In this document: positions 1-59,167 of the stretch, piece after piece
Numbering within the stretch: position 1 is the stretch's first letter
Layout of the letters: each line of letters opens with the position of its first letter
IMG/VR virus record: IMGVR_UViG_3300032360_000004
Location: 1-61,310 of that record
Source: a virus
Taxonomy: Duplodnaviria; Caudoviricetes
Direction: 5' to 3' (one strand)
DNA: 61,310 nucleotides
Notes under the pieces: generated by a model
Told to the model about the DNA's origin: nothing
Databases searched by the model: none
What the model saw: only the letters and a program-made list of their open reading frames with translations
Made by a program: the position numbers and the translations under genes

Positions 1-128
1 GCGAGGTGGACCGTAGTGTCATGGACCGGGTGACTAAGGTGTGCCTGGATACTGCCCGTGGTCAAACCATGATGATAGCCCAGCAACTACACGCAGCAGG
101 TACCACCAAGGGGGCTGCCCTGCGAGCT
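1..128. repeat. Terminal redundancy (circular assembly overlap), copy 1
   Basis: 1-128 is identical to 61183-61310 except position 2 (C vs T at 61184, a synonymous AGC/AGT change). The helicase ORF reads through the junction. Confidence 0.97.
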
Positions 129-308
129 ATAGCACTGGCCACTAACACCCCAGAGAATAAGACCCGCGAACTGTTGCGGTTCTTACAACGTATAGACGCA
201 GTAGAATCCTTTAGTACAGGTAAGGGTATCGGGGGCAATAAAGCCCGGTGGAGACTAACCGCTAAACTACAAACCCTATACACCACCGTACTGGGGGAAG
301 GGCAATGA
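1..308 (+). CDS. C-terminal part (probable winged-helix tail) of the MCM-like AAA+ helicase that starts at 60096
   Basis: In frame with 60096..61310 through the terminal overlap. The joined ORF is 464 aa. Confidence 0.85.
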   Translation, partial: EVDRSVMDRVTKVCLDTARGQTMMIAQQLHAAGTTKGAALRAIALATNTPENKTRELLRFLQRIDAVESFSTGKGIGGNKARWRLTAKLQTLYTTVLGEGQ

Positions 309-1201
309 CTATGACAACCCACGACTTAAGGTTGGACAGCCAATTAAACCTGGACCATGTGGAACACGTGGTGTCCATAGTGTCCTCGTCCCGTGCTGGC
401 AGCAGCCTGCTAAAGCACACCATGGCTCTGCACTCAGACCTATCCACATTGGCAGGGGAAGAGGAACCCTATTACAAGCTGGCCCACAACGGTTACCCGT
501 GGCACACCTGTGACGTGTTCCACAGTCTAAACGGATTAGACTACGTTAGGCTGCTTATGGCCAACGAACTGCACAACCACCAACAGCAGCACAACCGGGC
601 CTGGATACAATCACAAACGGTAGAAGAACCACCGTTCGTCCAGCCTAAACAGTGCCGTCTTACCCCCACCCTGTTGTTAAAGACTCCCCAGAACATATAC
701 CGCCGTGGGGTGCTGGAAGAACTATTTCCAGGGCGACGTATTAGTTACATCTACTTAACTCGTGGCTTTGCCCAAGTGGTTAACGGGCTTATAGATGGGT
801 GGTTGAGTGATGACTATAAAGCCCGGAAGACTGAGCAAGGGTGGTGGAAGTTTGATATGCCACCCGGTTGGGCATTCAGTCACCTCTACCAACGGTGCTA
901 CCACCAGTGGCGTATGGCTAACCTGTTTGGCCTTGGCGAGTACGATGATGCTAGCTACCGGTTAAAGTTTGAGGACTTTACACGTGATACTGATAGCGTG
1001 TGCCAACGGCTGTACCGTCTGCTGGGCCTGCCACCGCACTCAGTGCCACCCCTGGAAGACCTGCCCCACATCATGGCTACCAGTGCCCCCAAGCCACACA
1101 GGTGGCAGGGTAGAGCGTACTTGGCCAAACTGCTTGGCAGCCGGGCCGAACCTCTAATGACTAACTTAGGCTATAGCATGGACCAGTCTACATGGACATA
1201 A
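305..1201 (+). CDS. Sulfotransferase-family (PAPS-binding P-loop) protein
   Basis: 5'-PSB-like IVSSSRAGSSLL..H, EEPYY, LLKTPQN, 3'-PB-like YIYLTR, and LKFEDF. Confidence 0.75.
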   Translation: MTMTTHDLRLDSQLNLDHVEHVVSIVSSSRAGSSLLKHTMALHSDLSTLAGEEEPYYKLAHNGYPWHTCDVFHSLNGLDYVRLLMANELHNHQQQHNRAWIQSQTVEEPPFVQPKQCRLTPTLLLKTPQNIYRRGVLEELFPGRRISYIYLTRGFAQVVNGLIDGWLSDDYKARKTEQGWWKFDMPPGWAFSHLYQRCYHQWRMANLFGLGEYDDASYRLKFEDFTRDTDSVCQRLYRLLGLPPHSVPPLEDLPHIMATSAPKPHRWQGRAYLAKLLGSRAEPLMTNLGYSMDQSTWT

Positions 1202-2142
1202 TCGACTTTTGTAAGTTGTCTAAACTGAACATGGACAACTGCGACTTCGACTGTATCTACCCCCTAGTGACTGACCTAGCCAACCAAGGTGGGTGGAGTG
1301 ACAAAGATCGCCTGTGGTACTGCGTGCTGTACATGGTGTTTTACAATGAGTCGGCAGCCCTTACCTACTTCCATCATCCCAGGAGAGGGGCAACCCGGCT
1401 GCCCATAGACACAGCCCGTCGTTGCTTGCGTGGTGGCCGTATAGTACGCCACCTGGAAAGCTGGAAAGCCATTAGCCAAGGGCAGCACGTAGCCGACTAC
1501 CTATGTAACGGCTTTACAGATGACCGGGCAGCCAACTGGCACCAACTGCTGGACAACATACAGCAGGTATATGGAAACGGTAGGTGGGCAGGCTATACCA
1601 CGGCTGACCTGTTGCACAAGGTGTGTGGGTTACCCGTGCAGCCCACTAGCACAGGGTGGCGACAGAGTAGTGGTCCTAAGAATGGCCTGGAAAAGCTACC
1701 ACCCAATAAGCTGGCCCTAGACCAACGTGAGGGACATTGGCTTCGCAGGCTGGCACCCTTGGCACAGAAACACCTACGGCTGGCCTACTGGCCCGAGGGG
1801 TGGGATTACGGTGTGCTGGAGAGCCTGCTGTGTGACTGGGACGGGCTAACTAAGGGTGGCTATTACAGTGGCCGTAACCTGGACCGTATGCTCAACCGCA
1901 TGGGTAAGGTGTTGGATGTGACCGGCACCAGCAGCCCGTTGCTAAAGCAGATCCTAGAGAGTCGTCAGCGGGTGTACCCGGCTAACCAGTTAGGCGAACG
2001 GCATGGTTGGTACGCTATAGATCCCAAACGTAAGAAACACTACCTACAAACGGGGGAAGTATTATGTGGAGCAGAGGACCGCAAATCTATAACAGGTGCC
2101 ACCAGTTTAATGCAGTTCCTGGGCAGGCACTGGTGTGGGTAG
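1192..2142 (+). CDS. Amino acid:DNA transferase (aGPT-Pplase2-like, HhH-fold DNA hypermodification enzyme)
   Basis: DFDCIYP, TARR, GNGRWAGY, SSGPKNGL, ESLLCDW..L.KGGYYSG and GE..GW..I...RK..Y..TG match the aGPT-Pplase2 family pattern. It lies near 5-hmdU genes across the junction. Confidence 0.7.
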   Translation: MDIIDFCKLSKLNMDNCDFDCIYPLVTDLANQGGWSDKDRLWYCVLYMVFYNESAALTYFHHPRRGATRLPIDTARRCLRGGRIVRHLESWKAISQGQHVADYLCNGFTDDRAANWHQLLDNIQQVYGNGRWAGYTTADLLHKVCGLPVQPTSTGWRQSSGPKNGLEKLPPNKLALDQREGHWLRRLAPLAQKHLRLAYWPEGWDYGVLESLLCDWDGLTKGGYYSGRNLDRMLNRMGKVLDVTGTSSPLLKQILESRQRVYPANQLGERHGWYAIDPKRKKHYLQTGEVLCGAEDRKSITGATSLMQFLGRHWCG

Positions 2143-2744
2143 ACGCCCACCCAGATTTCCACAGCAACGCCACCAGCATTAGCGGGTTCATAGGTGGCAA
2201 AGCCCTACACCGTATACGTAAGAAGTACGAGGCCATATACATACTGGGGGCACGCGACATAGAGCCTGGAGAGTTAGACAACATACGGGCCGAGGACCAC
2301 GTACACCTAGTAAGCGACGTGGACTACCTTGGCCTGCTGCCCAGTGGTGGCACTCACGTACATATAGACGGTGACGTGCTGGACCCACTGGTTAACCCAG
2401 ACGTGTCGTACCCGGTACGTTGGGGGTACACGGTGCAGGGCTTGGCTAACGTGCTGCTGCGGCTACCTGTAAGCCAGCTACAGGGCTGGTCGGTTAGTAA
2501 CATGGCCCCCGAGCTATTGGATGACCTGTGTAACCTGCTGCGTGGTCCTACGCTGTGCAGTGCTTGCGATGGCCCGTTCAACCTGGAAACCGAGGGTGGC
2601 CAGTGCGGTACCATCGGCACGTTTATAAACGTGGCCTTCTGCCCTACCTGCTTTGCAGGTATCTATGACATGGTGGACCAAATGAAACCACCCACCCCGT
2701 GCAACAAGTGCGACCGGGTGGGTGGGTGTGCGTCCCAGGGATGA
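2064..2744 (+). CDS. Arginase/agmatinase (ureohydrolase)-like protein with C-terminal Cys-rich zinc-finger extension
   Basis: WVDAHPD, ILGARDIEPGE and HVHIDGDVLDP metal-binding motifs. C-terminus has CxxC...FCPTC...CNKC. The start is uncertain and overlaps the upstream gene. Confidence 0.75.
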   Translation: MWSRGPQIYNRCHQFNAVPGQALVWVDAHPDFHSNATSISGFIGGKALHRIRKKYEAIYILGARDIEPGELDNIRAEDHVHLVSDVDYLGLLPSGGTHVHIDGDVLDPLVNPDVSYPVRWGYTVQGLANVLLRLPVSQLQGWSVSNMAPELLDDLCNLLRGPTLCSACDGPFNLETEGGQCGTIGTFINVAFCPTCFAGIYDMVDQMKPPTPCNKCDRVGGCASQG

Positions 2745-27627: not shown

Positions 27628-29526
27628 ATGCCTAAACTAACCATTGGGATGGCCCACTTTGATGACTTTGACGGGGTGTACTTTACACTCCAATCTTTAA
27701 GGCTCTACCACACAGAGTTAATGTCCGAAGTGGAAGTGGTTGTTGTAGACAACAACCCACAGTCGGTTTTAGGCCAAGCTGTAAAAAACTTCATCCAGAG
27801 CCAGTCTCAGGGTACAGGCGGGGGCGTAAAGTACGTAGAGCAGGCCTCCCCCACTGGCACCAGCCCAGCCAGGAATACTATATTTCAGGTTGCCACTGGG
27901 GACTACGTGCTAGTGATGGACTGCCATGTACTCATAGCTCCAGGGGGTTTGGAATACCTGCTGGACTACTACTCTAAACATCCAGATACTTCTGACCTAT
28001 TAACCGGTCCCCTTCTCTATGACAGTATGACCCAGATTAGTACCCACTTCGATGATGAGTGGCGGTCGGAGATGTGGGGGACATGGGGAACCGCCTGGAA
28101 GTGCGGGTGTGGAGACGACGGGGTTGTCTTTTCTCTTAAACCCAGTGGAGAACAAAACCCAGTCACTAAGCCAAGGCTGGTGTCTCCTGGTTACATACCT
28201 ATAGAGTCTTGCGGTACCTGTAAGAAAAAGCTCCCCATACTTGGCTGGGCTGGGCACGAAGAGGCATATTCCAGGGAAGGGTTTAATATGCTGGGTATGG
28301 GCAAGGATGACAAGCCCTTTGAGATACCAGCACAAGGCCTCGGCCTGTTTAGTTGTCGCCGAGATGCGTGGTTGGGGTTCAACCCAGATGCACGGGGGTT
28401 CGGTGGAGAAGAACTATACATACACGGTAAGTATAGGGAAGCCGGGCATAAGGCACTGTGCCTGCCCCCATTGAAGTGGCTCCACAGATTTGGAAGACCC
28501 AGCGGGGTTAAATACCCGCTCACCCGGTGGAACAAAATCCGCAACTACGTGTTAGAGTTTACCGAGATGGGGTGGCCTCTTGATCCTATCCACGAACACT
28601 TCGTGGCTTCTGGGCTAATGCAGGAAGACCACTGGGAACTATTAGTTAGTGACCCAGTTAAAGCCATGGATCCTAATGAGGGAGAAGGGTGTGGCACCTG
28701 TGGTGCAGGGGACACCGGGAACCACGGTTCTATAAAGACCATCGAAGATGCGTACCTTTATGTGAAGGGTATTCCTAGGGATCTGGATCAACACCTGCCC
28801 AAGCTAAAGGAACTCGCTGAACAGGTTGACCACGTGACGGAGTTTAGCAACCGACGCGAGAGTGTAATAGCCCTACTGGCTGGGCTACCTAAAACCCTTG
28901 TTAGCTATAACACAGAACGGGATTCCCTAATCAGGCAGGTAGAGGGACTGGAAAATACGTCTGTGGATTTTACAGTGACTAGCAAAACCAGCGGAGAAGT
29001 ATCTTCTATAGAGGAAACCGACTTACTGTTTTTAGATATGGAGCACACGTTCGACGCATTACTGGTAGAACTATTAAAGTTCGGATCTTCGACCACAAGA
29101 AGATATATAGTAATGCACGACACGCAGATACACGGGAGCATAGGTAGTGACGGTGGACAGGGACTGCTTGATGCCGTGGCGGTATTCCTTGCAGAATTCC
29201 CAGAGTGGTCTGTGATTTACCACACAGCAGAACAGTACGGACTAACCGTACTGGGTAAGCTAAAGAAGGATAAGCCCAAGCTGCCCAGTAAACTAAAGAT
29301 GGCTACCAACCTTGCCAAAGCTATAAGCACGCACGTAGTCACCGGGGGTGAGACTACCAACGCGAAGGACTACAAGGCCCGGCTACAAGCGTGTAACTTG
29401 TGCGACCAACGGGTGGACAGCCAGTGTGCTGCCTGTGGTTGCTTTGTAGATAAGAAGGCATCACTCCAAAGCCAAAACTGTCCTCTTGCCCGGTGGCCTA
29501 AACTAACCACCCCGGTGAAGCCGTGA
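27628..29526 (+). CDS. GT2 glycosyltransferase fused to a methyltransferase-like domain and a C-terminal Cys-rich domain
   Basis: LTIGMAHFDD, VVVDN, VMDCH, GFGGEE; DLLFLDMEH...YIVMHDT; RLQACNLC..C.ACGC...CPLARW. Confidence 0.8.
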   Translation: MPKLTIGMAHFDDFDGVYFTLQSLRLYHTELMSEVEVVVVDNNPQSVLGQAVKNFIQSQSQGTGGGVKYVEQASPTGTSPARNTIFQVATGDYVLVMDCHVLIAPGGLEYLLDYYSKHPDTSDLLTGPLLYDSMTQISTHFDDEWRSEMWGTWGTAWKCGCGDDGVVFSLKPSGEQNPVTKPRLVSPGYIPIESCGTCKKKLPILGWAGHEEAYSREGFNMLGMGKDDKPFEIPAQGLGLFSCRRDAWLGFNPDARGFGGEELYIHGKYREAGHKALCLPPLKWLHRFGRPSGVKYPLTRWNKIRNYVLEFTEMGWPLDPIHEHFVASGLMQEDHWELLVSDPVKAMDPNEGEGCGTCGAGDTGNHGSIKTIEDAYLYVKGIPRDLDQHLPKLKELAEQVDHVTEFSNRRESVIALLAGLPKTLVSYNTERDSLIRQVEGLENTSVDFTVTSKTSGEVSSIEETDLLFLDMEHTFDALLVELLKFGSSTTRRYIVMHDTQIHGSIGSDGGQGLLDAVAVFLAEFPEWSVIYHTAEQYGLTVLGKLKKDKPKLPSKLKMATNLAKAISTHVVTGGETTNAKDYKARLQACNLCDQRVDSQCAACGCFVDKKASLQSQNCPLARWPKLTTPVKP

Positions 29527-30236
29527 GGATATTTATTATTAACTACAACCGGCTGACCAGCACCCGCAATATGGTGGAGTACCTATTAACGCTACCTGAT
29601 GCCGACCCGGTTATCATAGACAACGCCAGCACCTATCCTCCCCTGTTACACTGGTATAACCACGCCTGCCCGGTGGAAGTAGAGTTAGGAACTGAGGATT
29701 TTGGACCACGTGTACTGTGGGCAAATCGTAGCCGCCTAATACCCCCCGGTAAGGTGTACGCTGTAACTGACAGCGACCTGGACCTCAGTGGTTGCCCGGT
29801 TGACCTGTTGCAGCACCTGACCAGTGGGCTGGATCAATACCCTGAGATACGCAAGGTGGGTGTATCTTTAGCCCTGGAAGACATACCTGATGACAACCCA
29901 CTACAAGAGTTTACACGCAACCGCGAGGCACGGTACTGGGAAGACGAACGGGATGACAAGTTTTATGACGCTGACGTGGCCACTACTTTTGCCGTCTACC
30001 GCTCACACGATGGGCAGCCTCCAGCCCACTATGGTCCAGCCTTACGCAGCAAAGCACCGTACCAAGCCCGGCACCTACCGTGGTACCTAACCCCGGACAC
30101 TATGACAGATGAAGATAGGTACTACCTGGACCGCATAAACCCAGCCTGGACGGGTATTGTTTTTAGCCGCCATCTACAAAATCACTTGGATACTTTGGGA
30201 CCGGCTAACTATAAGGAGGACGTGGCATATGACTAA
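29523..30236 (+). CDS. GT2-like glycosyltransferase
   Basis: IFIINYNR, IIDNASTYPPL, VTDSDLD, ARHLPWY. Confidence 0.8.
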   Translation: MRIFIINYNRLTSTRNMVEYLLTLPDADPVIIDNASTYPPLLHWYNHACPVEVELGTEDFGPRVLWANRSRLIPPGKVYAVTDSDLDLSGCPVDLLQHLTSGLDQYPEIRKVGVSLALEDIPDDNPLQEFTRNREARYWEDERDDKFYDADVATTFAVYRSHDGQPPAHYGPALRSKAPYQARHLPWYLTPDTMTDEDRYYLDRINPAWTGIVFSRHLQNHLDTLGPANYKEDVAYD

Positions 30237-31715: not shown

Positions 31716-32038
31716 AAACCATAACCCTGGACAGCCCAAAGGACTTCCTAACCTACAGAGAAGGGTCAGGAAATACTGTGGAAATATTTGACATACAGGT
31801 GGGCACCAAGCGGGGCCGAGGGCGTGGTCGCAAACTTGTAGATACGCTGTTGAAGAAACTGGCACACCCCCCGATCCATGGCCGTCCACTACCTATCCCT
31901 ATGGTGTTTGCTATTACCCGGCATAACAACCGGATTGCTCGGGAGTTTTATACAGCAGTCGGGTTTAGGTTTGTTGGTTTCTTACACCACTTTTACGGGG
32001 TAGGTAATGACGCAGTTATGTATGGAATAGACGCATGA
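31706..32038 (+). CDS. GNAT acetyltransferase
   Basis: KRGRGRGRKLV and N..AREFYTAVGF motifs. Confidence 0.85.
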   Translation: MPMKTITLDSPKDFLTYREGSGNTVEIFDIQVGTKRGRGRGRKLVDTLLKKLAHPPIHGRPLPIPMVFAITRHNNRIAREFYTAVGFRFVGFLHHFYGVGNDAVMYGIDA

Positions 32039-33030: not shown

Positions 33031-33038
33031 CCTACACC

Positions 33039-34480: not shown

Positions 34481-34499
34481 CCCAAGGAGAGCGAGAAAG

Positions 34500-35474: not shown

Positions 35475-35476
35475 CC

Positions 35477-51102: not shown

Positions 51103-53099
51103 TTATAAGCCTAGACACAGAAACTACTGGACTGGATCTACGGCATGGCAGCAGGCCATTCCTGGTGACCATGTACAACAGCGACGACGTTACCACGTGG
51201 TGGGAGTGGGACGTAGACCCACTAACCCGGCAGCCTGTTGTACCCCCCGGTGACCTGGAAGAGGTACAGCAAACTATAGACAGTGCCGAGTTTATAGTTT
51301 TGCAGAACGCTAAGTTCGATGTAGCTGCCCTACAGTCTGTTTACCACGGCACCCTGGAATGGGATTGGTCCAAGGTCTATGACACCCTGTTGGCTGGCCA
51401 CCTGTTAGCAAGCAACCACCCCCACGACCTGACCACTATGGCCCTGATGTACTTGGGTGTAGATATAAAGTCCCAGGACAACACCGTGCAACAAGCCTGC
51501 AACGAGGCCCGTCGTATAGCACGCAGCAGGTACCCAGATTGGTTAATAGCCCGTAGTGACGACCCGACCATGCCCAGTGCTAAGGGTTCCCTAGCTAAGA
51601 GCGATATGTGGTTACCTCGTGCTGTGGCCAAGGTAGAACACTACCCCACTAACCACCTGTGGCATACGGTGTGTGCCCGATACGCCAATGTTGATAGTGA
51701 GGTCACCCTCCACCTGTTTAACCGCCAACGGCAGCTATTAGAGGAGCGGGGCTTGTGGGATATATACCTGACCCGCCTACGGGTGCTACCTATTGCATAT
51801 GACATGGAGAGCCGAGGCATAACTATATGCCGAAGCCGCCTGGAACAACTACAACAGGAGTACACAGAGGAGAGTGGCCAAGCTGGCCGGGTGTGTGTCA
51901 ACATTGCTACTAGTTTTGGTGCGGACCTACGCCTACCTAAAGGGGGTAATAACAACAGCCTGCTTAGTACCGTGTTTGGCAGTATGGGACTGGAGCCTGT
52001 TAAACGGTCTAAGAAAACTGGTGCTCCCAGCCTGGACAAGCAAACTATAGAACACTACGAAGCTACCCTGCCCCCACGAAGTAGGGAACTAACATTCGTA
52101 CAGGCACTAAGACGCAAACGCAAACGCGACACAGCCCTGCAATACATGGAAGGCTATATAAGGTTCTGGCTGCCCTTAGACAGTGACCAGGACACCGGGT
52201 GGTACCGCTTGCACCCCAGCCTAAACCCAACAGGTACGGACACCCTGCGGTGGAGCAGTAGTAACCCCAACGAGCAGAACATCAGCAAGCAGGAAGGGTT
52301 TAACCTGCGGCACTGCTTTGGCCCAGCACCGGGCCGTGAGTGGTGGAGCCTGGATGCTAAGAATATAGAACTGCGTATACCCGCCTATGAGGCTGGGGAG
52401 ACCGAGATGGTAGACCTGTTCGAACGTAGTGACGAACCGCCCTACTACGGCAGCTACCATATGTTAATATTCGACACCCTGCATCCAGACAAGTTTGCCC
52501 AGTACGGTATGGAATGTAAACAGCGGTACGGCAGCACGTGGTACCAGTGGACCAAGAATGGAAACTTCGCTGTGCAGTACGGGGCAGTGGAAGCCAGCGG
52601 TACCGCTGACCGGGCCTATCATATACCGGGTGCCCAGCACCGCATACAGGAACGATTCTCTAAGGTGGCTGCTCTTAATACTAAGATGATAGAGTTCGCC
52701 ACCCAGCACGGTTACGTAGAGACCATGCCAGACCTGACCGTAGATCCCACCCGTGGCTACCCGCTGCTATGTACACTGAGCCAGTGGGGTGAAGTGCTGC
52801 CCACTGTGCCCCTGAACTACCACGTACAGGGAACAGCTATGTGGTGGATGATGAAGGCCATGTTGAGGTGCCAGGAGTACCTGGACACGTTACCCGGCTG
52901 CTACATGGTTATGCAGATACACGACGAACTGGTGTTTGACTTTCCACAAGGCAAGGGGCTACAGCCGTGGCGTACTAATATGCCCCGCATCCGCAGGATT
53001 AAAAGCCTGATGGAAGAGAGTGGTAAGGACCTAGGAATACCCACACCCGTCAGTTTAGAATATCACCCCACCACCTGGAGCGAGGGTATGGTCCTATGA
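51099..53099 (+). CDS. polA: Family A DNA polymerase with 3'-5' exonuclease
   Basis: SLDTETTG, QNAKFD, YANVD; SSSNPNEQNI, LDAKNIELRI, KNGNFAVQYG, QIHDELV. Confidence 0.95.
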   Translation: MIISLDTETTGLDLRHGSRPFLVTMYNSDDVTTWWEWDVDPLTRQPVVPPGDLEEVQQTIDSAEFIVLQNAKFDVAALQSVYHGTLEWDWSKVYDTLLAGHLLASNHPHDLTTMALMYLGVDIKSQDNTVQQACNEARRIARSRYPDWLIARSDDPTMPSAKGSLAKSDMWLPRAVAKVEHYPTNHLWHTVCARYANVDSEVTLHLFNRQRQLLEERGLWDIYLTRLRVLPIAYDMESRGITICRSRLEQLQQEYTEESGQAGRVCVNIATSFGADLRLPKGGNNNSLLSTVFGSMGLEPVKRSKKTGAPSLDKQTIEHYEATLPPRSRELTFVQALRRKRKRDTALQYMEGYIRFWLPLDSDQDTGWYRLHPSLNPTGTDTLRWSSSNPNEQNISKQEGFNLRHCFGPAPGREWWSLDAKNIELRIPAYEAGETEMVDLFERSDEPPYYGSYHMLIFDTLHPDKFAQYGMECKQRYGSTWYQWTKNGNFAVQYGAVEASGTADRAYHIPGAQHRIQERFSKVAALNTKMIEFATQHGYVETMPDLTVDPTRGYPLLCTLSQWGEVLPTVPLNYHVQGTAMWWMMKAMLRCQEYLDTLPGCYMVMQIHDELVFDFPQGKGLQPWRTNMPRIRRIKSLMEESGKDLGIPTPVSLEYHPTTWSEGMVL

Positions 53100-54001
53100 A
53101 GATTGAACAGGTGGCCAAGCTGTCACCACAGGCACGGCTATTATACTGGATACGTGAGCGGCACCAGATTTACCTACGTCGTAAAGCTGGCAAGCCTACA
53201 CCGTGGACCGATGACCAGATACTACAAACAGCCTTCTTTACAAATCCCTACCGTGAGCACGACCGTACTACTATCTGGCTCAGGGAAAACTTTAGGGATG
53301 AGCATAGAAAGCAACCCAGTGTAGTAACTGGGACCATTATATATAGGTGGTTCAATCGCATAGAGACGGGGCAAGTGTTGCTACAACATGGCCTGTTGAC
53401 TAGGTGGAAGCCCCGGCTTGCCATGAGAGTGCTGGGGGAGTTGGCCAAGCCCTTCACCAGTGCCTACATCATTAGCACCCGGTCAGCCCCCAAGGGTACC
53501 AGTAAGCTGGAAGCCGTCTGTAACTATATAGACCAAGTGTGGAACCACAGGACAAGACTGCCAGCCAGGATAGAGACCTGCGGCACCATGCAGCAGACTG
53601 TGGACATACTTAAACAGTATGAAGGGCTAGGACCGTTCATGTCTTACGAGATAGCCTGCGACCTGAGATACACCCGCTACTTACAGGATGCCCCAGACGT
53701 TACTACATACACACAGGTAGGACCGGGTGCTCGCAGGGGCTTATACCGTCTCCAGGGATTACAACCCAAGAAGCGGCTCAACCGTAACACCGGGGGCACT
53801 GGCTGGTACGGGGCCAGTCAGCCAACCCTGGAAGACGAAATAGGAACTGTGCAACAAGTCATGCAGCTTATTAATGGGGGAACTAAGATCCGAGTCCCCG
53901 TGTTTGAAATGAGGGAGGTGGAACATAGTCTGTGCGAGTGGGATAAGTATGAACGGGTGTTACAGGGAGAACGACCCAAACGTAAATACATGGGAGCCTA
54001 G
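53096..54001 (+). CDS. 5-hmdU DNA kinase-like (aGPT-Pplase1), paralogue 1
   Basis: WIRERHQIY..R..G..PWTDDQIL...FTNPYREHDRTT, YRWFN, GLGPFMSYEI.CD, EHSLCEWDKY.R. Confidence 0.85.
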   Translation: MKIEQVAKLSPQARLLYWIRERHQIYLRRKAGKPTPWTDDQILQTAFFTNPYREHDRTTIWLRENFRDEHRKQPSVVTGTIIYRWFNRIETGQVLLQHGLLTRWKPRLAMRVLGELAKPFTSAYIISTRSAPKGTSKLEAVCNYIDQVWNHRTRLPARIETCGTMQQTVDILKQYEGLGPFMSYEIACDLRYTRYLQDAPDVTTYTQVGPGARRGLYRLQGLQPKKRLNRNTGGTGWYGASQPTLEDEIGTVQQVMQLINGGTKIRVPVFEMREVEHSLCEWDKYERVLQGERPKRKYMGA

Positions 54002-54003: not shown

Positions 54004-54903
54004 ATGTTGAGTGAGCAAGTGGCCAAGCTAACATCCAGGGACAGGTTTATTTATTGGATACGTGAACGGCACCAGATATATAGGAAACGCAGGGCAGGCC
54101 AGATTGCACCGTGGACAAATGACCCGGTGCTGCGACAATACTTCTTTACCAACCCGTACCGGGAGAACGACAAGGTAACCCAGTGGTTCAGGCAGCACCT
54201 GCGGGAACCCCTGCGGGATGATCCCCGTGTGCTGTTTGCCACCGTGGCCTTTAGGTGGTTTAACCTGCCTAGTACGGGCTGTGCGTTGATGCACTACCCC
54301 AGTGAGGGTAAATGGCCGGGTTTACTGGGCAAGTGGCGTACAGGGGCAGCCACGGCCCTTCTAGGGGGCTTGAAAGAACAGGGTAAGGTGTTTACCGGGG
54401 CATTCAACATATCCGCCAGCGGCAGTACCAAGCCCAAGGTCAACCGGGTGTGTGAGGACTACATAGAACCCGTGTGGAGGGACCGTGCCAACCTGCTGCA
54501 CCGGGTAGAGGGTTGTACCACCCTGCAGGATGCCCACGCCCTGCTAAGGCAATACACCGGGCTGGGTGGTAGTGGCTTTATGGCCTACGAAATCATATGC
54601 GACCTGCGGTATACCTACCTGCTGGAAGACGCCACTGACATATGCACCTGGACCAACCCCGGTCCGGGCTGCCACCGTGGGCTGGCCCGCCTGGAAGGGC
54701 AAAGCCTACAGGGGGCACGACGGGTGAAGGTGGATGAACCACTAATAAAGATGCGGGACTTGCTGGCGTACACCCGTAGACGGCTACCGTCGATGCAGTT
54801 TGAAATGCGGGAGATAGAGCACAGCCTATGTGAGTACGATAAGTATGAGCGAGCACGGCTTAGCGAAGGACACCTTAAAAGAAAGTACCACCCCTCCTCA
54901 TGA
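54004..54903 (+). CDS. 5-hmdU DNA kinase-like (aGPT-Pplase1), paralogue 2
   Basis: Same motif set: PWTNDPVL, FTNPYRENDKVT, FRWFN, FMAYEIICD, GPG, EHSLCEYDKY.R. Confidence 0.85.
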   Translation: MLSEQVAKLTSRDRFIYWIRERHQIYRKRRAGQIAPWTNDPVLRQYFFTNPYRENDKVTQWFRQHLREPLRDDPRVLFATVAFRWFNLPSTGCALMHYPSEGKWPGLLGKWRTGAATALLGGLKEQGKVFTGAFNISASGSTKPKVNRVCEDYIEPVWRDRANLLHRVEGCTTLQDAHALLRQYTGLGGSGFMAYEIICDLRYTYLLEDATDICTWTNPGPGCHRGLARLEGQSLQGARRVKVDEPLIKMRDLLAYTRRRLPSMQFEMREIEHSLCEYDKYERARLSEGHLKRKYHPSS

Positions 54904-55445
54904 CTGTGATTGATATACGTGGCACCCATGGCAGTGGTAAGAGTTGGTGTATGCACCAGCTACTAGACCAGTACGAACACCAACCCATAACTGAGGAAGG
55001 CAAGCACATAGGATACACACTGCCTGACCTGGAAGCAGCCTTGGTAGGTAAGTACGCCACAGTGACCGGGGGTTGTGACGGGGTGGGAACAGCCGATGAG
55101 GTGGTCCGCCGGGTCAGGCTGTTCGCCAGCCAGTACAGGTACGTATTACTAGAGGGGATATTAGTGTCCCACTCATTCAAGCGGTACCACGAGCTAGCCC
55201 TGGAAGTGGGTGACTACCGGTGGTTGTTTATGTCTACACCACTGCGGAACTGCATAGCCCGTGTGCGTGCCAGGAGAAGAGCACGTGGCAACCTGAAACC
55301 ACTAAGCCCACACAACGTAATTAAGGACCACGTCAGCGTGTGGACCAACATACAACGCAAGGCTCGGGACGCAGGCCACCGGGTGGTGGTGGTGCCGTGG
55401 CGTGACCCGCTGCCCACTGTGCTGCACGAACTGGGAGTATCCTAG
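54900..55445 (+). CDS. P-loop nucleotide kinase associated with thymidine hypermodification loci
   Basis: IRGTHGSGKS, GKY...GGCD, LLEG, TPL..CIARV..RR. Confidence 0.8.
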   Translation: MTVIDIRGTHGSGKSWCMHQLLDQYEHQPITEEGKHIGYTLPDLEAALVGKYATVTGGCDGVGTADEVVRRVRLFASQYRYVLLEGILVSHSFKRYHELALEVGDYRWLFMSTPLRNCIARVRARRRARGNLKPLSPHNVIKDHVSVWTNIQRKARDAGHRVVVVPWRDPLPTVLHELGVS

Positions 55446-55467
55446 TCATGACCACCGGGCAGGTACC

Positions 55468-55504
55468 AAAGAAAAACCCCCACCCCCCAAAGGGGGCAGG
55501 GGTT
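55468..55504 (-). terminator. Rho-independent terminator for the histone-like gene
   Basis: GC-rich hairpin followed by TTTTTCTTT on the - strand. Confidence 0.65.
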
Positions 55505-55525
55505 ACAACAGCCGGGCCAGTGGCC

Positions 55526-56332: not shown

Positions 56333-56377
56333 GGTTGCTTGCTCCGTTTGCGTGGGCCGTGTGAATGTCATAAACGA

Positions 56378-56461: not shown

Positions 56462-56923
56462 TTGGAGTCCCAAATGCCCCCAGAAACTTTGCCCCCAAGC
56501 CAAGAAAAGCCGCCAATCGTGTACCTTGCGGTGCCCTACAGCCATGCGGATCCGCTGGTGATGGAGGCCCGTTACCGGGCTGTCACCCACGCAGCCGGGC
56601 GATTGCTGGCACAGGGACGGCACGTGTTCAGCCCCATCACCCACACCCACCCCATAAAGGTAGCTGCCGGTCAGGTTGACCTGTGGGACTCCTGGGCAGC
56701 GTACGACACTGCCGTCATGACCAACCTGTGTAGCAGCATGGTGGTACTATGCCTAAAGGGGTGGCGTACCAGTACCGGGGTGCGTGCTGAAAGACAACTG
56801 GCTCGATCCCTGGGACTGCCTATCAGCTACCTGCTGCCCCAGCATTGTGGCCTCCGCCCCAGATACCCGTACCAAGACTGGCAGCCGATGATCCCCGATA
56901 TCCCAACCCGTCCCAACGCCTAA
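56462..56923 (+). CDS. Nucleoside 2-deoxyribosyltransferase-like (DUF1937-type) protein
   Basis: VYLAVPYSH, VFSPITHTHP, GWRTSTGVRAE. Confidence 0.8.
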   Translation: MESQMPPETLPPSQEKPPIVYLAVPYSHADPLVMEARYRAVTHAAGRLLAQGRHVFSPITHTHPIKVAAGQVDLWDSWAAYDTAVMTNLCSSMVVLCLKGWRTSTGVRAERQLARSLGLPISYLLPQHCGLRPRYPYQDWQPMIPDIPTRPNA

Positions 56924-56956
56924 AACCAGTATCCCAACCGTCCCAGCCCGTCCCAA
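56892..56956. repeat. Helically phased TCCC(A) repeats
   Basis: TCCC starts at 56892, 56901, 56911, 56932, 56941 and 56951. Confidence 0.6.
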
Positions 56957-56964
56957 GGTATTCC

Positions 56965-58098
56965 ATGCACTACCAGTACCGTAATGTAAATGATGCGTTT
57001 GTTGGGCTTGTCCAGGCTATTCACACTGGGGAACTGCCCACGGTGGTGACACCCAGCCGGGCCGGTGAAGTCATGATGGTACCCCACCCGGTGCTGGTCA
57101 GTTACACCCACCCACTGGAGCGGGTGCTGCTGCACACAGGCCGGGACGCTAACCCGTTCTTCCACCTCTTTGAAAGTCTGTGGATGTTGGCCGGGTGCAA
57201 CACCGTGGCTCCACTGCTGTACTACAACAGCCGCATAGCAGCCATTGCCAGCGATGACGGCAAGACGTTTAACGGTGCCTACGGTTACCGCTGGCGACAC
57301 CCCGTGGACCAGCTAGCCGTTATCATTGAACACCTACGGGCCACGCCTGGAAGCCGTCGTGCCGTATTGCAAATGTGGAACACGCAGGATGACCTACTGC
57401 GGGTGGATGATACTAAAGACGTGTGCTGCAACACGCACGTGTACTTTAGCGTGGAACAGGGCACGTGTCCTGACTGCAACGGCACTGGCTATAACAGTGT
57501 GTGGAGCTTGGGCACCCAAGGACCAGAGCCTTGCACACGGTGCAACGGCTTACCCCACGACCAACCCACCTACCTGAACATGACCGTATGCAATAGGAGC
57601 AACGATCTGCTGTGGGGTTTGCTGGGTGCCAACGTGGTCCACTTCAGTGTGCTGCAAGAATACGTAGCCCTGAGCCTGGGATTACAGGTTGGCACCTACT
57701 ACCAGTTTACTAACAACCTGCACGTGTACACCGAAAGGTGGACCCCGGAAAAGTGGTCTGCCTTTGAGCGGTCCAAAGGGCAGGCACCTTACGCACTTCC
57801 ACAGGCCAAGCGTGTACCGTTGGTAGAGCAGCCGGACAGGTTCAATGCAGAGTGTAAGCAGTTTGTGGACGGGCCACTCATACCGCCAACCCTTGTAGGA
57901 GAGGGGCGGTTTAACTGGAAGGAGCCGTTCTTACAACACGTGGCTGCTCCCATGTGTTGGGCCTACCGTCTATACAAGCAACGGGAATACGCCCTAGCTT
58001 TAAGAACTGTGGACGAGGTGTGGGACCGTGACTGGCGGACTGCCGCTACCAACTGGATACAAAAACGGCAGGCCCGGTATCTGGATAAGTCATCATAA
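56965..58098 (+). CDS. Thymidylate synthase homologue, probable dUMP hydroxymethyltransferase, with DnaJ-type Zn-finger insertion
   Basis: RDANPFFH..ESLWMLAG, GAYG.RW, SRRAVLQMW, KDVCCN, NRSND..WG..GAN, NNLHVY; insert CPDCNGTG...CTRCNG. Confidence 0.85.
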   Translation: MHYQYRNVNDAFVGLVQAIHTGELPTVVTPSRAGEVMMVPHPVLVSYTHPLERVLLHTGRDANPFFHLFESLWMLAGCNTVAPLLYYNSRIAAIASDDGKTFNGAYGYRWRHPVDQLAVIIEHLRATPGSRRAVLQMWNTQDDLLRVDDTKDVCCNTHVYFSVEQGTCPDCNGTGYNSVWSLGTQGPEPCTRCNGLPHDQPTYLNMTVCNRSNDLLWGLLGANVVHFSVLQEYVALSLGLQVGTYYQFTNNLHVYTERWTPEKWSAFERSKGQAPYALPQAKRVPLVEQPDRFNAECKQFVDGPLIPPTLVGEGRFNWKEPFLQHVAAPMCWAYRLYKQREYALALRTVDEVWDRDWRTAATNWIQKRQARYLDKSS

Positions 58099-58652
58099 TG
58101 ATTTTACCTACAGCAGTACGCAGCAAACGCAATTTCGTAGAGCGGTACCAGCGGGGTGAGTTCGGAAACCGCAGCCCTACCTGGAATGACCTAACGGAAT
58201 GCCTAGCTAGCGGGTACACGGGATTGGTACATATCCGTAACCGGGTACGTGGTGGGGCTACATGGTATGACGTGCCTCACGGGGGGCTACAAGATGCGTG
58301 GAAGCACGCTGTTGATAAGTGCGGCAAGATCCACCTATACATAAGTGCAATGGCCCCAACGGACCGCACCGTGCTCCAGGGAGAAGTACAGCAGGGCTAC
58401 CACGGGCTGGATCTATATTACACCACCGTAGCTCAACCCATGCGGCAGGCACTAGCCACCAGCAGCAGGCAGGTACGTGGTATAATGGCTAGTTGGCTAC
58501 TGCGGTACCACCTGTGTCCTAATAGCCATGACTGGCTGTTGTACCTGCTGGACGCCTACCCCAATCACGTGGTGGAGTTTAGTGCGTACGAAAGACCATG
58601 GGGAACAGTACCGGGGCACAACACAGTCTTCTGGGAAGTCCGTCAATACTAA
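58098..58652 (+). CDS. Conserved-looking hypothetical protein in the modification cluster (possible degenerate ATP-grasp)
   Basis: TAATG-coupled to the TS gene; GEFGN, QGEV, VVEFS, FWEVR. Confidence 0.55.
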   Translation: MILPTAVRSKRNFVERYQRGEFGNRSPTWNDLTECLASGYTGLVHIRNRVRGGATWYDVPHGGLQDAWKHAVDKCGKIHLYISAMAPTDRTVLQGEVQQGYHGLDLYYTTVAQPMRQALATSSRQVRGIMASWLLRYHLCPNSHDWLLYLLDAYPNHVVEFSAYERPWGTVPGHNTVFWEVRQY

Positions 58653-58669
58653 TAGAGGGAGCAAGCACT

Positions 58670-59167
58670 ATGGACCCAACACAATACCAACAACTGGCAG
58701 CACGCACTGAGTGTGACCAGGAAGCAGCCCGACAACGTGTAGCAACCGACAATATGTTACGCACCACCCGGCTGCTGCACGCCTGCTTAGGATTGTCTGG
58801 AGAGGTAGGTGAGTTGTCTGCTGCTGCCGAACGCTGGGTGTACTACGGGCACGACCTGGATGCAGGTAATGTAAAGGAGGAGGTAGGTGATTGCCTGTGG
58901 TACCTAGCCCTAGCCTGTAACGCCCTAGGCTTGGACATGGCACAGGTGATGGAAGCTAACATAGCTAAGCTGCGTCAGCGGTACCCTTCTAAGTATAGTG
59001 ACGACCAAGCCCTGGAAGTTAACCGTGACCGGGCAGCAGAACGCAGCATAGTGGAAGGTGTCCCCGACAGTGACCAAAACCCCATGGTACAAAATGGCCA
59101 AGGCTGGGCCGAGCCACCTTGGGGATTTAATGCCCACCGATTAGATAACGATAACTGTGATGCTTAG
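58670..59167 (+). CDS. MazG-like NTP pyrophosphohydrolase
   Basis: YQQLAART, GLSGEVGE, EEVGDCLWY, NIAKLRQRYP. Confidence 0.9.
   Translation: MDPTQYQQLAARTECDQEAARQRVATDNMLRTTRLLHACLGLSGEVGELSAAAERWVYYGHDLDAGNVKEEVGDCLWYLALACNALGLDMAQVMEANIAKLRQRYPSKYSDDQALEVNRDRAAERSIVEGVPDSDQNPMVQNGQGWAEPPWGFNAHRLDNDNCDA

What the first reader, a model, noticed from the sequence alone, without database searches (positions are those of the whole stretch)
305..2744. Sulfotransferase + amino acid:DNA transferase + ureohydrolase: candidate new thymidine hypermodification chemistry
Seen: three overlapping genes continue, across the circular junction, the operon that encodes a dUMP hydroxymethylase-like enzyme, two 5-hmdU kinases, a P-loop kinase and MazG. 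Established: in M6/ViI/PhiW-14-type phages, 5-hmdU in DNA is phosphorylated by aGPT-Pplase1, substituted with an amino acid by aGPT-Pplase2, and then tailored by PLP or radical SAM enzymes. No such tailoring enzyme is evident here. Inference: the ureohydrolase supplies or trims an Arg/agmatine-derived group (ornithine or putrescine). The sulfotransferase then either sulfates the adduct or activates the hydroxymethyl as a sulfate leaving group, which would give a sulfated base not known to me.
Basis: partly seen in the sequence, partly recalled or inferred. Interest (0 to 1): 0.85.

Follow-up and report, generated by a model that had tools for sequence, protein, structure and literature searches.

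The report
Sulfotransferase–guanidine hydrolase module for phage thymidine hypermodification
An uncultured phage carries, inside its thymine-modifying gene set, a sulfotransferase-like enzyme paired with an arginine-type hydrolase, a pairing that recurs in many phages and bacteria and suggests a sulfur- and nitrogen-bearing DNA base not yet described.

Summary
The three genes are real: Sulfotransfer_3 (305-1201), ADDT/aGPT-Pplase2 (1192-2142) and an arginase-family ORF (2064-2744), in a terminally redundant phage contig that also holds a TS-like gene, two HMUDK helical-domain genes, a P-loop kinase and MazG. The arginase-like ORF lacks the N-terminal ~85-95 residues of all 13 aligned relatives.

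The sulfotransferase belongs to a conserved family. In 47 of 49 informative dereplicated loci it sits beside a guanidino-group enzyme: DDAH-like in 31 groups, arginase-like in 16. On a quick tree the two unrelated folds replace each other repeatedly. The pair occurs inside thymidine-hypermodification cassettes (18 groups with ADDT, including ParB–TET/JBP–kinase–SULT–DDAH–ADDT in a 100%-complete phage record). It also occurs in bacteria without ADDT, often next to PAPS-synthesis genes.

The closest folds are the activating sulfotransferases CurM and OLS. The gene set matches by annotation the nucleocidin/ascamycin sulfamylation genes (NucO/NucN/NucK/NucQ), but I could not compare sequences.

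Best reading: the pair uses PAPS and an arginine-type substrate to make or finish the group that ADDT couples to kinase-activated 5-hmdU. The product is unknown. No held paper and no cultured phage record shows this module.

The parts
305..1201 (+). Sulfotransferase-fold enzyme (SULT), 298 aa, short 'phage' form of a conserved family
   Evidence: Pfam Sulfotransfer_3 E 2e-10. AF2 model has mean pLDDT 89.3. Foldseek top PDB hits are CurM ST 4gbm and OLS ST 4gox, then TPST and 3-OST. 79 homologues were found. In alignment A1, S29, R30 and G32 of the S-R-x-G-S-T loop are in at least 90% of rows, and G51-E52-E53-E54-P55-Y56 is invariant.
1192..2142 (+). Amino acid:DNA transferase (ADDT, formerly aGPT-Pplase clade 2), 316 aa
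   Evidence: Pfam PF18724 54.9 bits against a cut-off of 26.2; phrog_6364. Homologues of 33-39% identity lie beside SULT in other loci. The closest cultured relatives are uncharacterised actinophage proteins at 24-28% identity.
2064..2744 (+). Arginase-fold guanidino hydrolase-like ORF, 226 aa, N-terminally truncated, with a unique Cys-rich tail of about 70 aa (alternative GTG start at 2130)
   Evidence: Pfam Arginase E 5e-13 but only profile positions 112-259 of 280. Alignment A2 shows the missing N-terminal part, while C12, D27, H29, D31, D102 and D104 are kept. In the AF2 model residues 15-161 are confident and the tail is below pLDDT 50. No second arginase-family or DDAH-like gene was found in the record.
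53096..54001 (+). HMUDK helical-domain protein 1 (aGPT-Pplase1 type)
   Evidence: Pfam PF18723 E 2.2e-49; phrog_2396.
54004..54903 (+). HMUDK helical-domain protein 2 (paralogue)
   Evidence: Pfam PF18723 E 1.6e-48.
54900..55445 (+). P-loop kinase, candidate 5-hmdU DNA kinase
   Evidence: Weak Pfam HMUDK_HMUD1 E 2.8e-4, below cut-off. Homologues occur in 17 loci (window included), in several directly upstream of SULT.
56462..56923 (+). DUF1937 / nucleoside 2-deoxyribosyltransferase-like protein
   Evidence: Pfam DUF1937 E 7e-19; phrog_355.
56845..58098 (+). Thymidylate-synthase homologue, candidate dUMP hydroxymethylase
   Evidence: Pfam Thymidylat_synt E 4.8e-18; phrog_5131 E 3.8e-92. The hydroxymethylase role is inferred from context only.
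58098..58652 (+). Conserved 184-aa protein of unknown family, next to the TS-like gene
   Evidence: No Pfam or PHROG hit. A 45% identical homologue follows the TS-like gene in L006.
58598..59167 (+). MazG-like nucleotide pyrophosphohydrolase
   Evidence: Pfam MazG E 8e-10; phrog_229 E 1.2e-38.
3..128 (.). Terminal redundancy: identical to 61185-61310, joining the two ends of the record
   Evidence: Exact 126-nt match; the ORF at 60096-61310 continues into 3-308.

Best explanation
Window 305-2744 is the tailoring cassette of a 5-hmdU-based thymidine hypermodification pathway. The TS-like enzyme and MazG would supply 5-hmdU in DNA, and the P-loop kinase with the HMUDK helical proteins would phosphorylate it. 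This follows the established pathway and is inferred here. The ADDT then displaces the phosphate with a nucleophile. What is new is how that nucleophile, or the final group, is made. A sulfotransferase-fold enzyme, probably PAPS-dependent and closest to the 'activating' CurM/OLS sulfotransferases, works as an obligate pair with a guanidino-group hydrolase on an L-arginine-type substrate. In this window the hydrolase is a truncated arginase-fold protein; in most relatives it is DDAH-like. I think the pair most likely acts on a free small molecule before the ADDT step and supplies a small, probably anionic, nitrogen nucleophile. The finished base would then carry a sulfur- and nitrogen-bearing group. 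Shown here: gene identities, the conserved pairing, the non-homologous replacement of the hydrolase, and embedding in hypermodification cassettes. Inferred: substrates, order of steps and product.
For: (1) Family assignments are.

(2) Pairing. Of 56 SULT groups dereplicated at 85% identity, 47 have a guanidino enzyme (31 DDAH/ADI-like, 16 arginase-like). Seven of the 9 without one end less than 800 nt downstream of SULT, which leaves 47 of 49 informative groups. In 37 of the 47 the two ORFs abut or overlap by -28 to +4 nt.

(3) Replacement. On a quick SULT tree the arginase label needs at least 5 changes forced by starred branches. W, L003 and L052 (arginase) interleave with DDAH-linked rows.

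(4) Cassette context. 18 groups carry ADDT. G006, a 79,355-b record rated 100% complete by CheckV, has ParB_N, Tet_JBP, a P-loop kinase, SULT, DDAH-like and ADDT in a row. L033 has the same order.

(5) Arginine-type substrate. The DDAH-like family matches P. aeruginosa DDAH over its full length (E 4.5e-35). D88, R107, D136, R152, H184 and C271 are invariant and align with the DDAH motifs.

(6) PAPS link. APS-kinase or CysN genes lie near SULT in 8 of the 56 groups. L078 has CysNC plus CysD, and a haloarchaeal plasmid has cysC directly after the SULT homologue.

(7) Small-molecule supply. Median pI is 6.1 for SULT, 5.75 for DDAH-like and 5.4 for arginase-like, against 7.5 for ADDT, 8.1 for HMUDK_hel and 8.6 for the P-loop kinase. 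Of the 11 loci that the ADDT scan returned, 4 (two distinct forms: L086, and the near-identical L088/L089/L095) carry a DASS/SLC13-type anion transporter gene where the pair sits elsewhere, and no SULT was found in those 4 records.

(8) The pair also occurs without ADDT in Oxalobacteraceae and Bdellovibrionota genomes.
Against: - No modified base has been observed, and no cultured phage has the module.
- The window's own hydrolase lacks about a third of the fold, so it may be inactive.
- The canonical 3'-phosphate-binding serine of sulfotransferases appears replaced by the conserved N160-G161 (N160 and G161 are invariant in A1). This rests on a weak alignment segment, so PAPS use is not proven.
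- An arginase-type and a DDAH-type enzyme would give different fragments from the same substrate, which no simple scheme reconciles.
- The pI argument is soft.
- The four transporter records are only 20-63% complete, and the search returned 'nothing rang' with no positive control, so absence of SULT there is not shown.
- In 12 viral groups (type B: SULT, DDAH-like, two TS-like genes, an APH-type kinase) no ADDT is present, so the coupling enzyme there is unknown.
- Two informative loci (L016, L047) have SULT without a partner.
Confidence: 0.55

Rival explanations
1. Post-installation tailoring. ADDT attaches arginine or agmatine to 5-PmdU. The hydrolase then trims the guanidino group on the DNA to an ornithine/putrescine-type or citrulline-type adduct, and SULT sulfates that adduct.
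For: In the known pathways tailoring follows amino-acid installation: PLP, radical SAM and flavin enzymes act on N-alpha-GlyT or O-SerT (Lee 2021, abstract and sections 16 and 21 read). The gene order SULT-ADDT-hydrolase or SULT-hydrolase-ADDT is compact.
Against: The pair is conserved without ADDT in bacteria and in type-B viral loci. The DDAH-like partners keep invariant residues that align with the DDAH positions I recall as binding the free alpha-amino and alpha-carboxylate groups, which does not fit an N-alpha-linked DNA adduct (roles recalled). The pair is acidic. A transporter substitutes for the pair in sister loci.
Confidence: 0.2
2. SULT activates 5-hmdU itself by O-sulfation, making a sulfate leaving group for ADDT in place of, or beside, phosphate.
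For: The closest sequence and fold relatives are CurM ST and OLS ST, which sulfate a hydroxyl to create a leaving group (their role as stated in PMC10946740 section 7).
Against: A P-loop kinase gene accompanies SULT in 10 of the 18 ADDT-linked groups, including both compact TET/JBP cassettes; in the other 8 none was seen in the stretch held, which in five reaches only 240-1216 nt upstream of SULT. SULT is tied to the guanidino enzyme, not to hydroxymethylases, and occurs in bacteria without any hm-pyrimidine genes. SULT is not basic like the DNA-acting proteins.
Confidence: 0.07
3. The window's third gene is a decaying remnant. The truncated arginase-like ORF is inactive, and this phage runs the pathway with SULT and ADDT only, or relies on a host enzyme.
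For: About 85-95 N-terminal residues are missing that all 13 relatives have. The model keeps only 5 strands. No near homologue with the same architecture was found.
Against: The frame is open for 236 codons with no stop. All the invariant residues that align with arginase metal ligands, plus C12, are kept. The core is modelled with pLDDT 85-95. It keeps the conserved position and overlaps ADDT.
Confidence: 0.25
4. The pair has nothing to do with DNA. It is an auxiliary metabolic or glycan/protein-sulfating function that merely sits near replication genes.
For: The window encodes a sugar cluster with a GT2, a GT1-like gene, a 4,6-dehydratase-like gene and a DegT aminotransferase at 27628-36508. 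Bacterial homologues have no DNA-modification neighbours.
Against: In 18 groups the pair is contiguous with ADDT, and in G006 and L033 it lies between the kinase and ADDT of a TET/JBP cassette. In the window it is about 25 kb from the sugar cluster.
Confidence: 0.08

Closest known systems
Thymidine hypermodification pathways of phages M6, ViI, PhiW-14, SP10 and PaMx11 (Lee et al. 2018, 2021)
   Same: A source of 5-hmdU, a P-loop 5-hmdU DNA kinase with aGPT-Pplase1/HMUDK helical proteins, and an ADDT (aGPT-Pplase2) that substitutes the activated hydroxymethyl.
   Different: The tailoring genes named there are radical SAM isomerases, PLP decarboxylases, flavin lyases, acetyltransferases, amidoligases and GATases. 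'Sulfotransferase', 'arginase', 'arginine' and 'guanidin' each occur 0 times in the main text of the 2021 paper, and 'sulfotransferase' 0 times in the 2018 paper. The window's ADDT is only 24-28% identical to any ADDT homologue in a cultured phage.
ParB-dependent T-dioxygenase (5mYOX) hypermodification clusters (PNAS 2026, PMC13229309; passages read)
   Same: G006 and L033 carry ParB_N plus Tet_JBP followed by a P-loop kinase and ADDT, as described for that subclass.
   Different: That paper lists GATases, P-loop kinases and AADTs as partners, and 'sulfo', 'arginase' and 'deiminase' occur 0 times in its main text. Here SULT and a DDAH-like gene sit between the kinase and ADDT. The window itself uses a TS-like gene, not TET/JBP.
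Sulfamylation genes of nucleocidin and ascamycin (NucO/AcmO, NucN/AcmN, NucK/AcmK, NucL, NucQ and PAPS genes)
   Same: The shared features are a divergent sulfotransferase whose closest folds are 4GBM and 4GOX, next to a ~320-aa 'amidinotransferase'-type protein, together with a canonical sulfotransferase, a SAM methyltransferase, a rubrerythrin-like protein and CysD/CysN/APS kinase. L078 has CysNC, CysD, a rubrerythrin-like gene, SULT, a DDAH-like gene and a canonical ST in a row.
   Different: I could not test direct sequence homology because I had no source for the Nuc or Acm sequences. Those clusters modify a nucleoside 5'-OH in Streptomyces. The phage cassettes lack the canonical ST, the rubrerythrin and the other nuc genes, and carry ADDT instead.
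CurM and OLS 'activating' sulfotransferase domains (PDB 4gbm, 4gox)
   Same: They are the best PDB matches by profile (4gox E 0.004) and by Foldseek (E 1.5e-6 and 2.3e-6, TM about 0.5). They share the S-R-S-G-S-T phosphosulfate loop.
   Different: Identity is only 16%. These are free-standing proteins, not PKS domains. The family has an invariant GEEEPYY motif and WWKFDMPPGW, with the motif N-G where the 3'-phosphate serine is expected.
Pseudomonas aeruginosa DDAH (PDB 1h70, 3rhy) and the arginase/agmatinase family
   Same: The DDAH-like partners align over the full length with conserved positions for Cys, His, the acidic residues and two Arg. The arginase-like partners reach the Pfam gathering score and keep DxHxD and DxD.
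   Different: The arginase-like subfamily has G-D-C where, from memory, arginases have G-G-D-H. The window copy is truncated. Neither enzyme type has been described in DNA modification in the papers I searched.

Membership tests
5-hmdU-based thymidine hypermodification pathway | A source of 5-hmdU: a dUMP hydroxymethylase (TS homologue) or a TET/JBP T-dioxygenase | tested here: met
   The window has a TS homologue at 56845-58098. Relatives G006 and L033 have Tet_JBP plus ParB_N. Hydroxymethylase as opposed to methylase activity cannot be read from sequence.
5-hmdU-based thymidine hypermodification pathway | 5-hmdU DNA kinase (P-loop) | tested here: inconclusive
   54900-55445 matches HMUDK_HMUD1 at only E 2.8e-4, 20.9 bits against a cut-off of 27. 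Two strong HMUDK_hel proteins lie adjacent, and P-loop homologues occur in 17 loci, window included.
5-hmdU-based thymidine hypermodification pathway | Amino acid:DNA transferase (aGPT-Pplase2) | tested here: met
   PF18724 at 54.9 bits against a cut-off of 26.2.
5-hmdU-based thymidine hypermodification pathway | Hypermodified thymidine present in virion DNA | not testable with these tools
   This is an uncultured IMG/VR record.
PAPS-dependent sulfotransferases | Sulfotransferase fold | tested here: met
   AF2 pLDDT 89. The 43 highest-ranked Foldseek PDB hits are all sulfotransferases or the sulfotransferase-fold retinol dehydratase.
PAPS-dependent sulfotransferases | 5'-phosphosulfate-binding loop | tested here: met
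   S-R-x-G-S-T, with S29, R30 and G32 in at least 90% of A1 rows, aligns to P-R-S-G-S-T of 4gox.
PAPS-dependent sulfotransferases | 3'-phosphate-binding R...S motif | tested here: inconclusive
   R153 is invariant, but the expected Ser position appears to be N160-G161, both invariant. This rests on a weak alignment segment.
PAPS-dependent sulfotransferases | Genomic link to PAPS synthesis | tested here: met
   APS-kinase or CysN genes lie near SULT in 8 of 56 groups, and cysC follows SULT on a haloarchaeal plasmid. There is none in the window record.
Arginase/ureohydrolase family | Pfam PF00491 above the gathering score | tested here: met
   49.6 bits against a cut-off of 22.
Arginase/ureohydrolase family | Complete alpha/beta fold including the N-terminal strands | tested here: not met
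   Only profile positions 112-259 of 280 are matched. About 85-95 residues are missing compared with 13 relatives. The model has 5 strands.
Arginase/ureohydrolase family | Binuclear metal ligands (H, DxHxD, DxD) | tested here: inconclusive
   D27-x-H29-x-D31 and D102-x-D104 are present. The position of the first His is Cys (G-D-C) throughout the subfamily, and C12 is kept in the window. Ligand roles are recalled from rat arginase.
DDAH/ADI (guanidino-modifying) superfamily: the alternative partner in relatives, absent from the window | Catalytic Cys and His plus acidic residues, and two Arg for the carboxylate | tested here: met
   D88, R107, E110, E133, D136, R152, Q183-H184, N226 and C271 are invariant in 29 sequences and align with 3rhy over its full length at E 4.5e-35. 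Residue roles are recalled; my literature search for them found nothing.
Nucleocidin/ascamycin sulfamylation module (NucO+NucN) | Sequence homology to NucO/AcmO and NucN/AcmN | not tested
   No tool gave access to those sequences. Attempts were made. The atlas lead is a 417-aa, mostly actinobacterial cluster at TM 0.87.
Nucleocidin/ascamycin sulfamylation module (NucO+NucN) | A divergent ST (closest folds 4GBM/4GOX) adjacent to an 'amidinotransferase'-type protein, with a canonical ST, a rubrerythrin-like protein and PAPS genes | tested here: met
   L078 has all of these. The canonical ST is also in L080, L081 and L084. The descriptions of the nuc and acm genes come from the papers. The window has only the ST plus a hydrolase.

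The most novel reading that the evidence does not exclude
The SULT/guanidino-hydrolase pair is a portable sulfur-nitrogen bond-forming unit, the same chemistry that makes the sulfamoyl group of nucleocidin and ascamycin and whose mechanism is still unknown. SULT would N-sulfonate the guanidinium of L-arginine with PAPS. The DDAH-type partner would then release sulfamate, while the arginase-type partner would release an N-sulfo-urea. In phages the ADDT would couple this anion to 5-phosphoryloxymethyl-dU, giving an N-sulfo-aminomethyl (or sulfamoyl) uracil. That would be the first sulfur-bearing nucleobase modification of DNA.
Probability: 0.15. Interest if true: 0.95.

Novelty: new variant of a known kind. 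Interest (0 to 1): 0.8.

Why it matters
Thymidine hypermodifications protect phage DNA from restriction, and their enzymes are used as tools. All characterised routes tailor glycine, serine, glutamate or putrescine adducts. This module adds two enzyme classes, a sulfotransferase and a guanidino hydrolase, that no searched paper links to DNA modification. It recurs in at least 18 dereplicated viral groups with ADDT and in 12 more with TS-like genes. It therefore predicts a new, probably charged, base, and it can be tested directly with a compact six-gene cassette. Because the same pair sits in bacterial clusters that mirror the nucleocidin/ascamycin sulfamylation genes, working out its chemistry in a simple phage system could also help with the open question of how biological sulfamates are made.

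Tried and rejected
- DNA and protein searches of cultured phage records found nothing for the region (blastn), the arginase-like ORF or SULT.
- Single-sequence scans of IMG/VR with ADDT and the arginase-like ORF found no relatives. Alignment-based scans were needed.
- I considered a frameshift fusion between the ADDT C-terminus and the arginase N-terminus and rejected it. ADDT homologues have the same length and tail, which leaves no room for the missing ~90 residues.
- The search for homologous proteins with the window arginase-like ORF gave nothing at E <= 0.001.
- APS kinase was sought in the window record and not found.
- HMUDK Pfam models did not ring in G005 or G006. The HMUDK_HMUD1 search rang nowhere, controls included, so it is uninformative. 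A P-loop gene upstream of SULT in G006 was then found by motif and by Pfam.
- The Streptomyces plasmid homologue (L100) is a more distant family member with no guanidino partner. It sits between a multi-pass membrane protein and an oxidoreductase-like ORF, both read by eye, so it gave no bridge to NucO.
- The profile search of the 5.8-billion-protein set with A6 listed only Oxalobacteraceae and metagenome proteins among the 120 shown of 470.
- The careful tree search did not finish, so only the quick tree is reported.
- Supplementary files were not opened. The SI and the gene-cluster figures of Lee 2021 and the PNAS 2026 paper may show clusters containing these genes under Pfam labels that the main texts do not mention.
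- The literature search for DDAH residue roles found nothing, so those roles are recalled. I also recall, without a call, that Pfam PF02274 was formerly named 'Amidinotransf', which may explain the AcmN/NucN annotation.

Full report
**The observation.** The window is a 61,310-b IMG/VR virus record (CheckV 87%, classed linear). Its bases 3-128 repeat exactly at 61185-61310, so the ORF at 60096-61310 runs on into 3-308 and the record closes on itself. Three overlapping + strand ORFs follow directly. The first is 305-1201 (298 aa; Pfam Sulfotransfer_3, E 2e-10). The second is 1192-2142 (316 aa; ADDT PF18724, E 1.4e-14). The third is 2064-2744 (226 aa; Arginase PF00491, E 5e-13). All are above their gathering scores. 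On the other side of the junction lie:
- two HMUDK helical-domain genes (53096-54001 and 54004-54903);
- a P-loop protein (54900-55445; only a weak HMUDK_HMUD1 hit);
- a DUF1937 gene, a TS homologue (56845-58098), a 184-aa protein of unknown family, and MazG.

**The third gene is truncated.** The arginase match covers only profile positions 112-259 of 280. In an alignment with 13 relatives of 241-289 aa, the window protein lacks the first ~85-95 residues. It still keeps C12, D27-x-H29-x-D31 and D102-x-D104, and it adds a unique Cys-rich tail of about 70 aa. The AF2 model is confident for residues 15-161 (pLDDT 80-95 per block) and poor for the tail. No other arginase-family or DDAH-like gene was found in the record (the DDAH-like search had no positive control). 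A frameshift fusion with ADDT is excluded, because ADDT homologues elsewhere have the same length.

**The sulfotransferase family.**
- One search found 79 homologues. About 40 are proteins of ~280 aa at 40-53% identity on contigs of up to 171 kb. The rest are forms of ~405-420 aa with an insertion.
- A broader profile found 470 at E <= 0.001 among the 8000 candidates scored.
- In alignment A1, S29, R30 and G32 of an S-R-x-G-S-T loop are in at least 90% of rows, and G-E-E-E-P-Y is invariant. A WWKFDMPPGW motif and R153...N160-G161 are also conserved.
- The AF2 model (pLDDT 89.3) is a sulfotransferase fold.
- The best PDB matches by profile and by Foldseek are the OLS and CurM sulfotransferase domains, followed by TPST and 3-OST.

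**Related loci.** Scans with A1 returned 46 metagenome, 19 IMG/VR and 18 GTDB-genome loci. I clustered all ORFs of at least 80 aa within 6 kb of SULT.
- A DDAH/ADI-like family is in 51 loci, an arginase-like family in 21 (window included), and ADDT in 28. Two more ADDT loci were found by HMM.
- After dereplication at 85% SULT identity there are 56 groups, and 47 have a guanidino enzyme (31 DDAH-like, 16 arginase-like).
- Seven of the nine without one stop less than 800 nt after SULT. L016 (membrane ORFs downstream) and L047 truly lack a partner. That gives 47 of 49 informative groups.
- In 37 of the 47 the partner ORF abuts or overlaps SULT by -28 to +4 nt.

**The two hydrolase folds replace each other.** The first relative found, L001, already showed the point: Sulfotransfer_3, then ADDT, then an ADI-family protein where the window has the arginase-like gene. 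On a quick maximum-likelihood tree of 53 SULT rows, starred branches force at least 5 changes of the arginase label. I left out three fragments shorter than 230 aa, and the careful search did not finish. W, L003 and L052 (arginase) lie among DDAH-linked rows. Two unrelated guanidino-hydrolase folds thus replace each other beside the same sulfotransferase.

**Three architectures recur.**
- Type A (18 groups): HMUDK_hel and/or a P-loop kinase, SULT, ADDT and a hydrolase, often with a TS-like gene. A P-loop kinase gene was detected in 10 of these 18 groups. In the other 8 (L001/L048, L005, L006, L015, L040, L045 and others) none was seen in the stretch held.
  - Two independent contigs, L033 and G006, carry ParB_N, Tet_JBP, a P-loop kinase, SULT, DDAH-like and ADDT in a row. 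G006 is 79,355 b and 100% complete by CheckV. Here the 5-hmdU would come from a T-dioxygenase rather than a hydroxymethylase.
- Type B (12 viral groups): a guanylate-kinase-like gene, an unknown gene, a 166-aa P-loop protein, SULT, DDAH-like, a TS-like gene, an APH-type kinase, a TS homologue, an unknown gene and a sigma factor, with no ADDT.
- Type C (13 groups; Oxalobacteraceae and related genomes): a HemK/PrmC-like methyltransferase, SULT and arginase-like, flanked by ordinary chromosomal genes.

**What the partners tell.** The DDAH-like family matches P. aeruginosa DDAH end to end (E 4.5e-35). Its invariant D88, R107, D136, R152, H184 and C271 align with the DDAH motifs. From memory these are the alpha-amino and alpha-carboxylate binders and the catalytic residues; a literature search to confirm this found nothing. 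That fits an L-arginine-type substrate with a free amino-acid end. The arginase-like subfamily is large, with 253 representatives at E <= 1e-30 in the 1.84-billion-protein library. It has G-D-C where, again from memory, arginases have G-G-D-H.

**Link to PAPS.**
- APS-kinase or CysN genes lie near SULT in 8 of 56 groups.
- L078 has a CysN/CysC fusion (1zun_B at 1e-68; APS-kinase domains at 1e-55) and CysD (1zun_A at 7e-69).
- A haloarchaeal plasmid has cysC directly after its SULT homologue.
- The window record has no APS kinase, so the phage would rely on host PAPS.

**Small-molecule supply versus work on DNA.**
- SULT and both hydrolase families are acidic (median pI 6.1, 5.75 and 5.4). ADDT, HMUDK_hel and the P-loop kinase are basic (7.5, 8.1 and 8.6; the window's own are 9.0-9.8).
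- An ADDT-based scan of IMG/VR gave 11 loci. Seven carry SULT plus DDAH-like.
- The other four (L086, and the near-identical L088/L089/L095) carry, between ADDT and the P-loop kinase, a 473-481-aa transporter of the CitMHS / DASS-SLC13 type. No SULT was found anywhere in those records, but they are only 20-63% complete and the search had no positive control.

I read this as two ways of providing a small, probably anionic donor: synthesis or import. It is an inference.

**A literature lead.**
- The Chembiochem 2023 paper on nucleocidin (section 7 read) shows genetically that sulfamylation needs several genes. NucK is a canonical sulfotransferase. NucO is a tentative sulfotransferase whose closest folds are 4GBM and 4GOX. 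NucN is annotated as an amidinotransferase and proposed as the nitrogen donor. NucL is a SAM methyltransferase, and NucQ is a pseudo-rubrerythrin. PAPS genes are needed as well.
- The ascamycin paper (Table 1 passage) lists acmN (319 aa, amidinotransferase) beside acmO (444 aa, hypothetical). It also lists acmK, acmL, acmQ and PAPS genes.
- A review (passages) states that the S-N bond-forming mechanism is unknown.
- L078 carries CysNC, CysD, a rubrerythrin-like gene, SULT (423 aa), a DDAH-like gene and a canonical sulfotransferase. The last scores Sulfotransfer_3 1.2e-33 and Sulfotransfer_1 5.9e-13, nearly the values the paper reports for NucK.
- Canonical sulfotransferase homologues also accompany the pair in L080, L081 and L084.
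- The structure-nearest atlas cluster to the window SULT is a 417-aa, mainly actinobacterial sulfotransferase cluster (TM 0.87).
- I could not obtain Nuc or Acm sequences, so homology is untested.

**What is in print.**
- 'Sulfotransferase' occurs 0 times in Lee 2018 and Lee 2021.
- 'Arginine', 'guanidin', 'arginase' and 'amidinotransferase' occur 0 times in the main text of Lee 2021.
- 'Sulfo', 'arginase' and 'deiminase' occur 0 times in the PNAS 2026 T-dioxygenase paper.
- No paper holds 'hypermodified', 'phage DNA' and 'sulfotransferase' together.
- A six-term search returned only unrelated papers.
- No cultured phage record has a SULT or arginase-like homologue.

**Verdict.** The cassette is a real, recurrent tailoring module of thymidine hypermodification, and a guanidino substrate is well indicated. 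The sulfotransferase more likely helps to build the appended group, together with the hydrolase and probably before ADDT, than activates 5-hmdU. The product remains unknown, and the window's own hydrolase may be impaired.

Noticed in passing
window 27628-36508: This is a nucleotide-sugar/glycosylation cluster after the tail genes. It holds a GT2 (match at 27676-27990, inside a 632-aa ORF), a Glyco_trans_1_2 gene (33567-33902), an NAD epimerase/4,6-dehydratase-like gene (34455-35474) and a DegT/DnrJ/EryC1 PLP aminotransferase (35477-36508, E 8e-68). The target (DNA, virion or host surface) is unknown.
   Followed up: partly
L086 6957-8378; L089 6930-8375 (also L088, L095): Viral ADDT + P-loop kinase + HMUDK_hel (+ TS-like in L088/L089/L095) clusters carry a 473-481-aa DASS/SLC13-type anion transporter gene next to ADDT, with no SULT or hydrolase found in the records. 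A transporter inside a DNA-hypermodification cluster is unusual.
   Followed up: partly
L017 6314-13925 (and 11 further dereplicated viral groups): This 'type B' cluster has a guanylate-kinase-like gene, two unknown genes, SULT, a DDAH-like gene, a TS-like gene, an APH-type kinase, a TS homologue, an unknown gene and a sigma factor. No ADDT is recognisable, so it may be a different, perhaps nucleotide-level, pyrimidine modification that uses the same pair.
   Followed up: partly
L074 7192-9985; L070, L071, L075, L077 and others: Oxalobacteraceae chromosomes (Solimicrobium, Pseudoduganella, Rugamonas, Undibacterium) carry a three-gene operon: a HemK/PrmC-like methyltransferase (motif N-L-P-F), SULT (~411 aa) and an arginase-like gene (G-D-C motif). 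In some, an APS kinase lies convergently downstream. The cellular function is unknown.
   Followed up: partly
L078 3850-10667: A Bdellovibrionales MAG cluster carries CysN/CysC, CysD, a rubrerythrin-like gene, SULT, a DDAH-like gene and a canonical sulfotransferase. By annotation it mirrors the sulfamylation genes of the nucleocidin and ascamycin clusters.
   Followed up: partly
L101 5785-8882 (Halomicrobium salinisoli plasmid NZ_CP084467.1): Haloarchaeal megaplasmids carry a SULT homologue followed by a long cysC (358 aa) and a YqcI/YcgG-family protein. No guanidino hydrolase was detected by my HMMs.
   Followed up: no
window 55448-56440 (+) and 55526-56404 (-): Two long ORFs overlap on opposite strands between the P-loop kinase and the DUF1937 gene. 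The minus-strand one is Lys/Ala-rich and looks like a histone-H1-type DNA-binding protein. I did not resolve which one is real.
   Followed up: no
window 51081-53099 and elsewhere: A family-A DNA polymerase gene lies directly upstream of the HMUDK genes, and a UDG-superfamily gene exists somewhere in the record (Pfam E 1.3e-20; position not determined). This recalls the PolA/UDG theme reported for phages with T-modified genomes (PMC13697223; search listing only).
   Followed up: no
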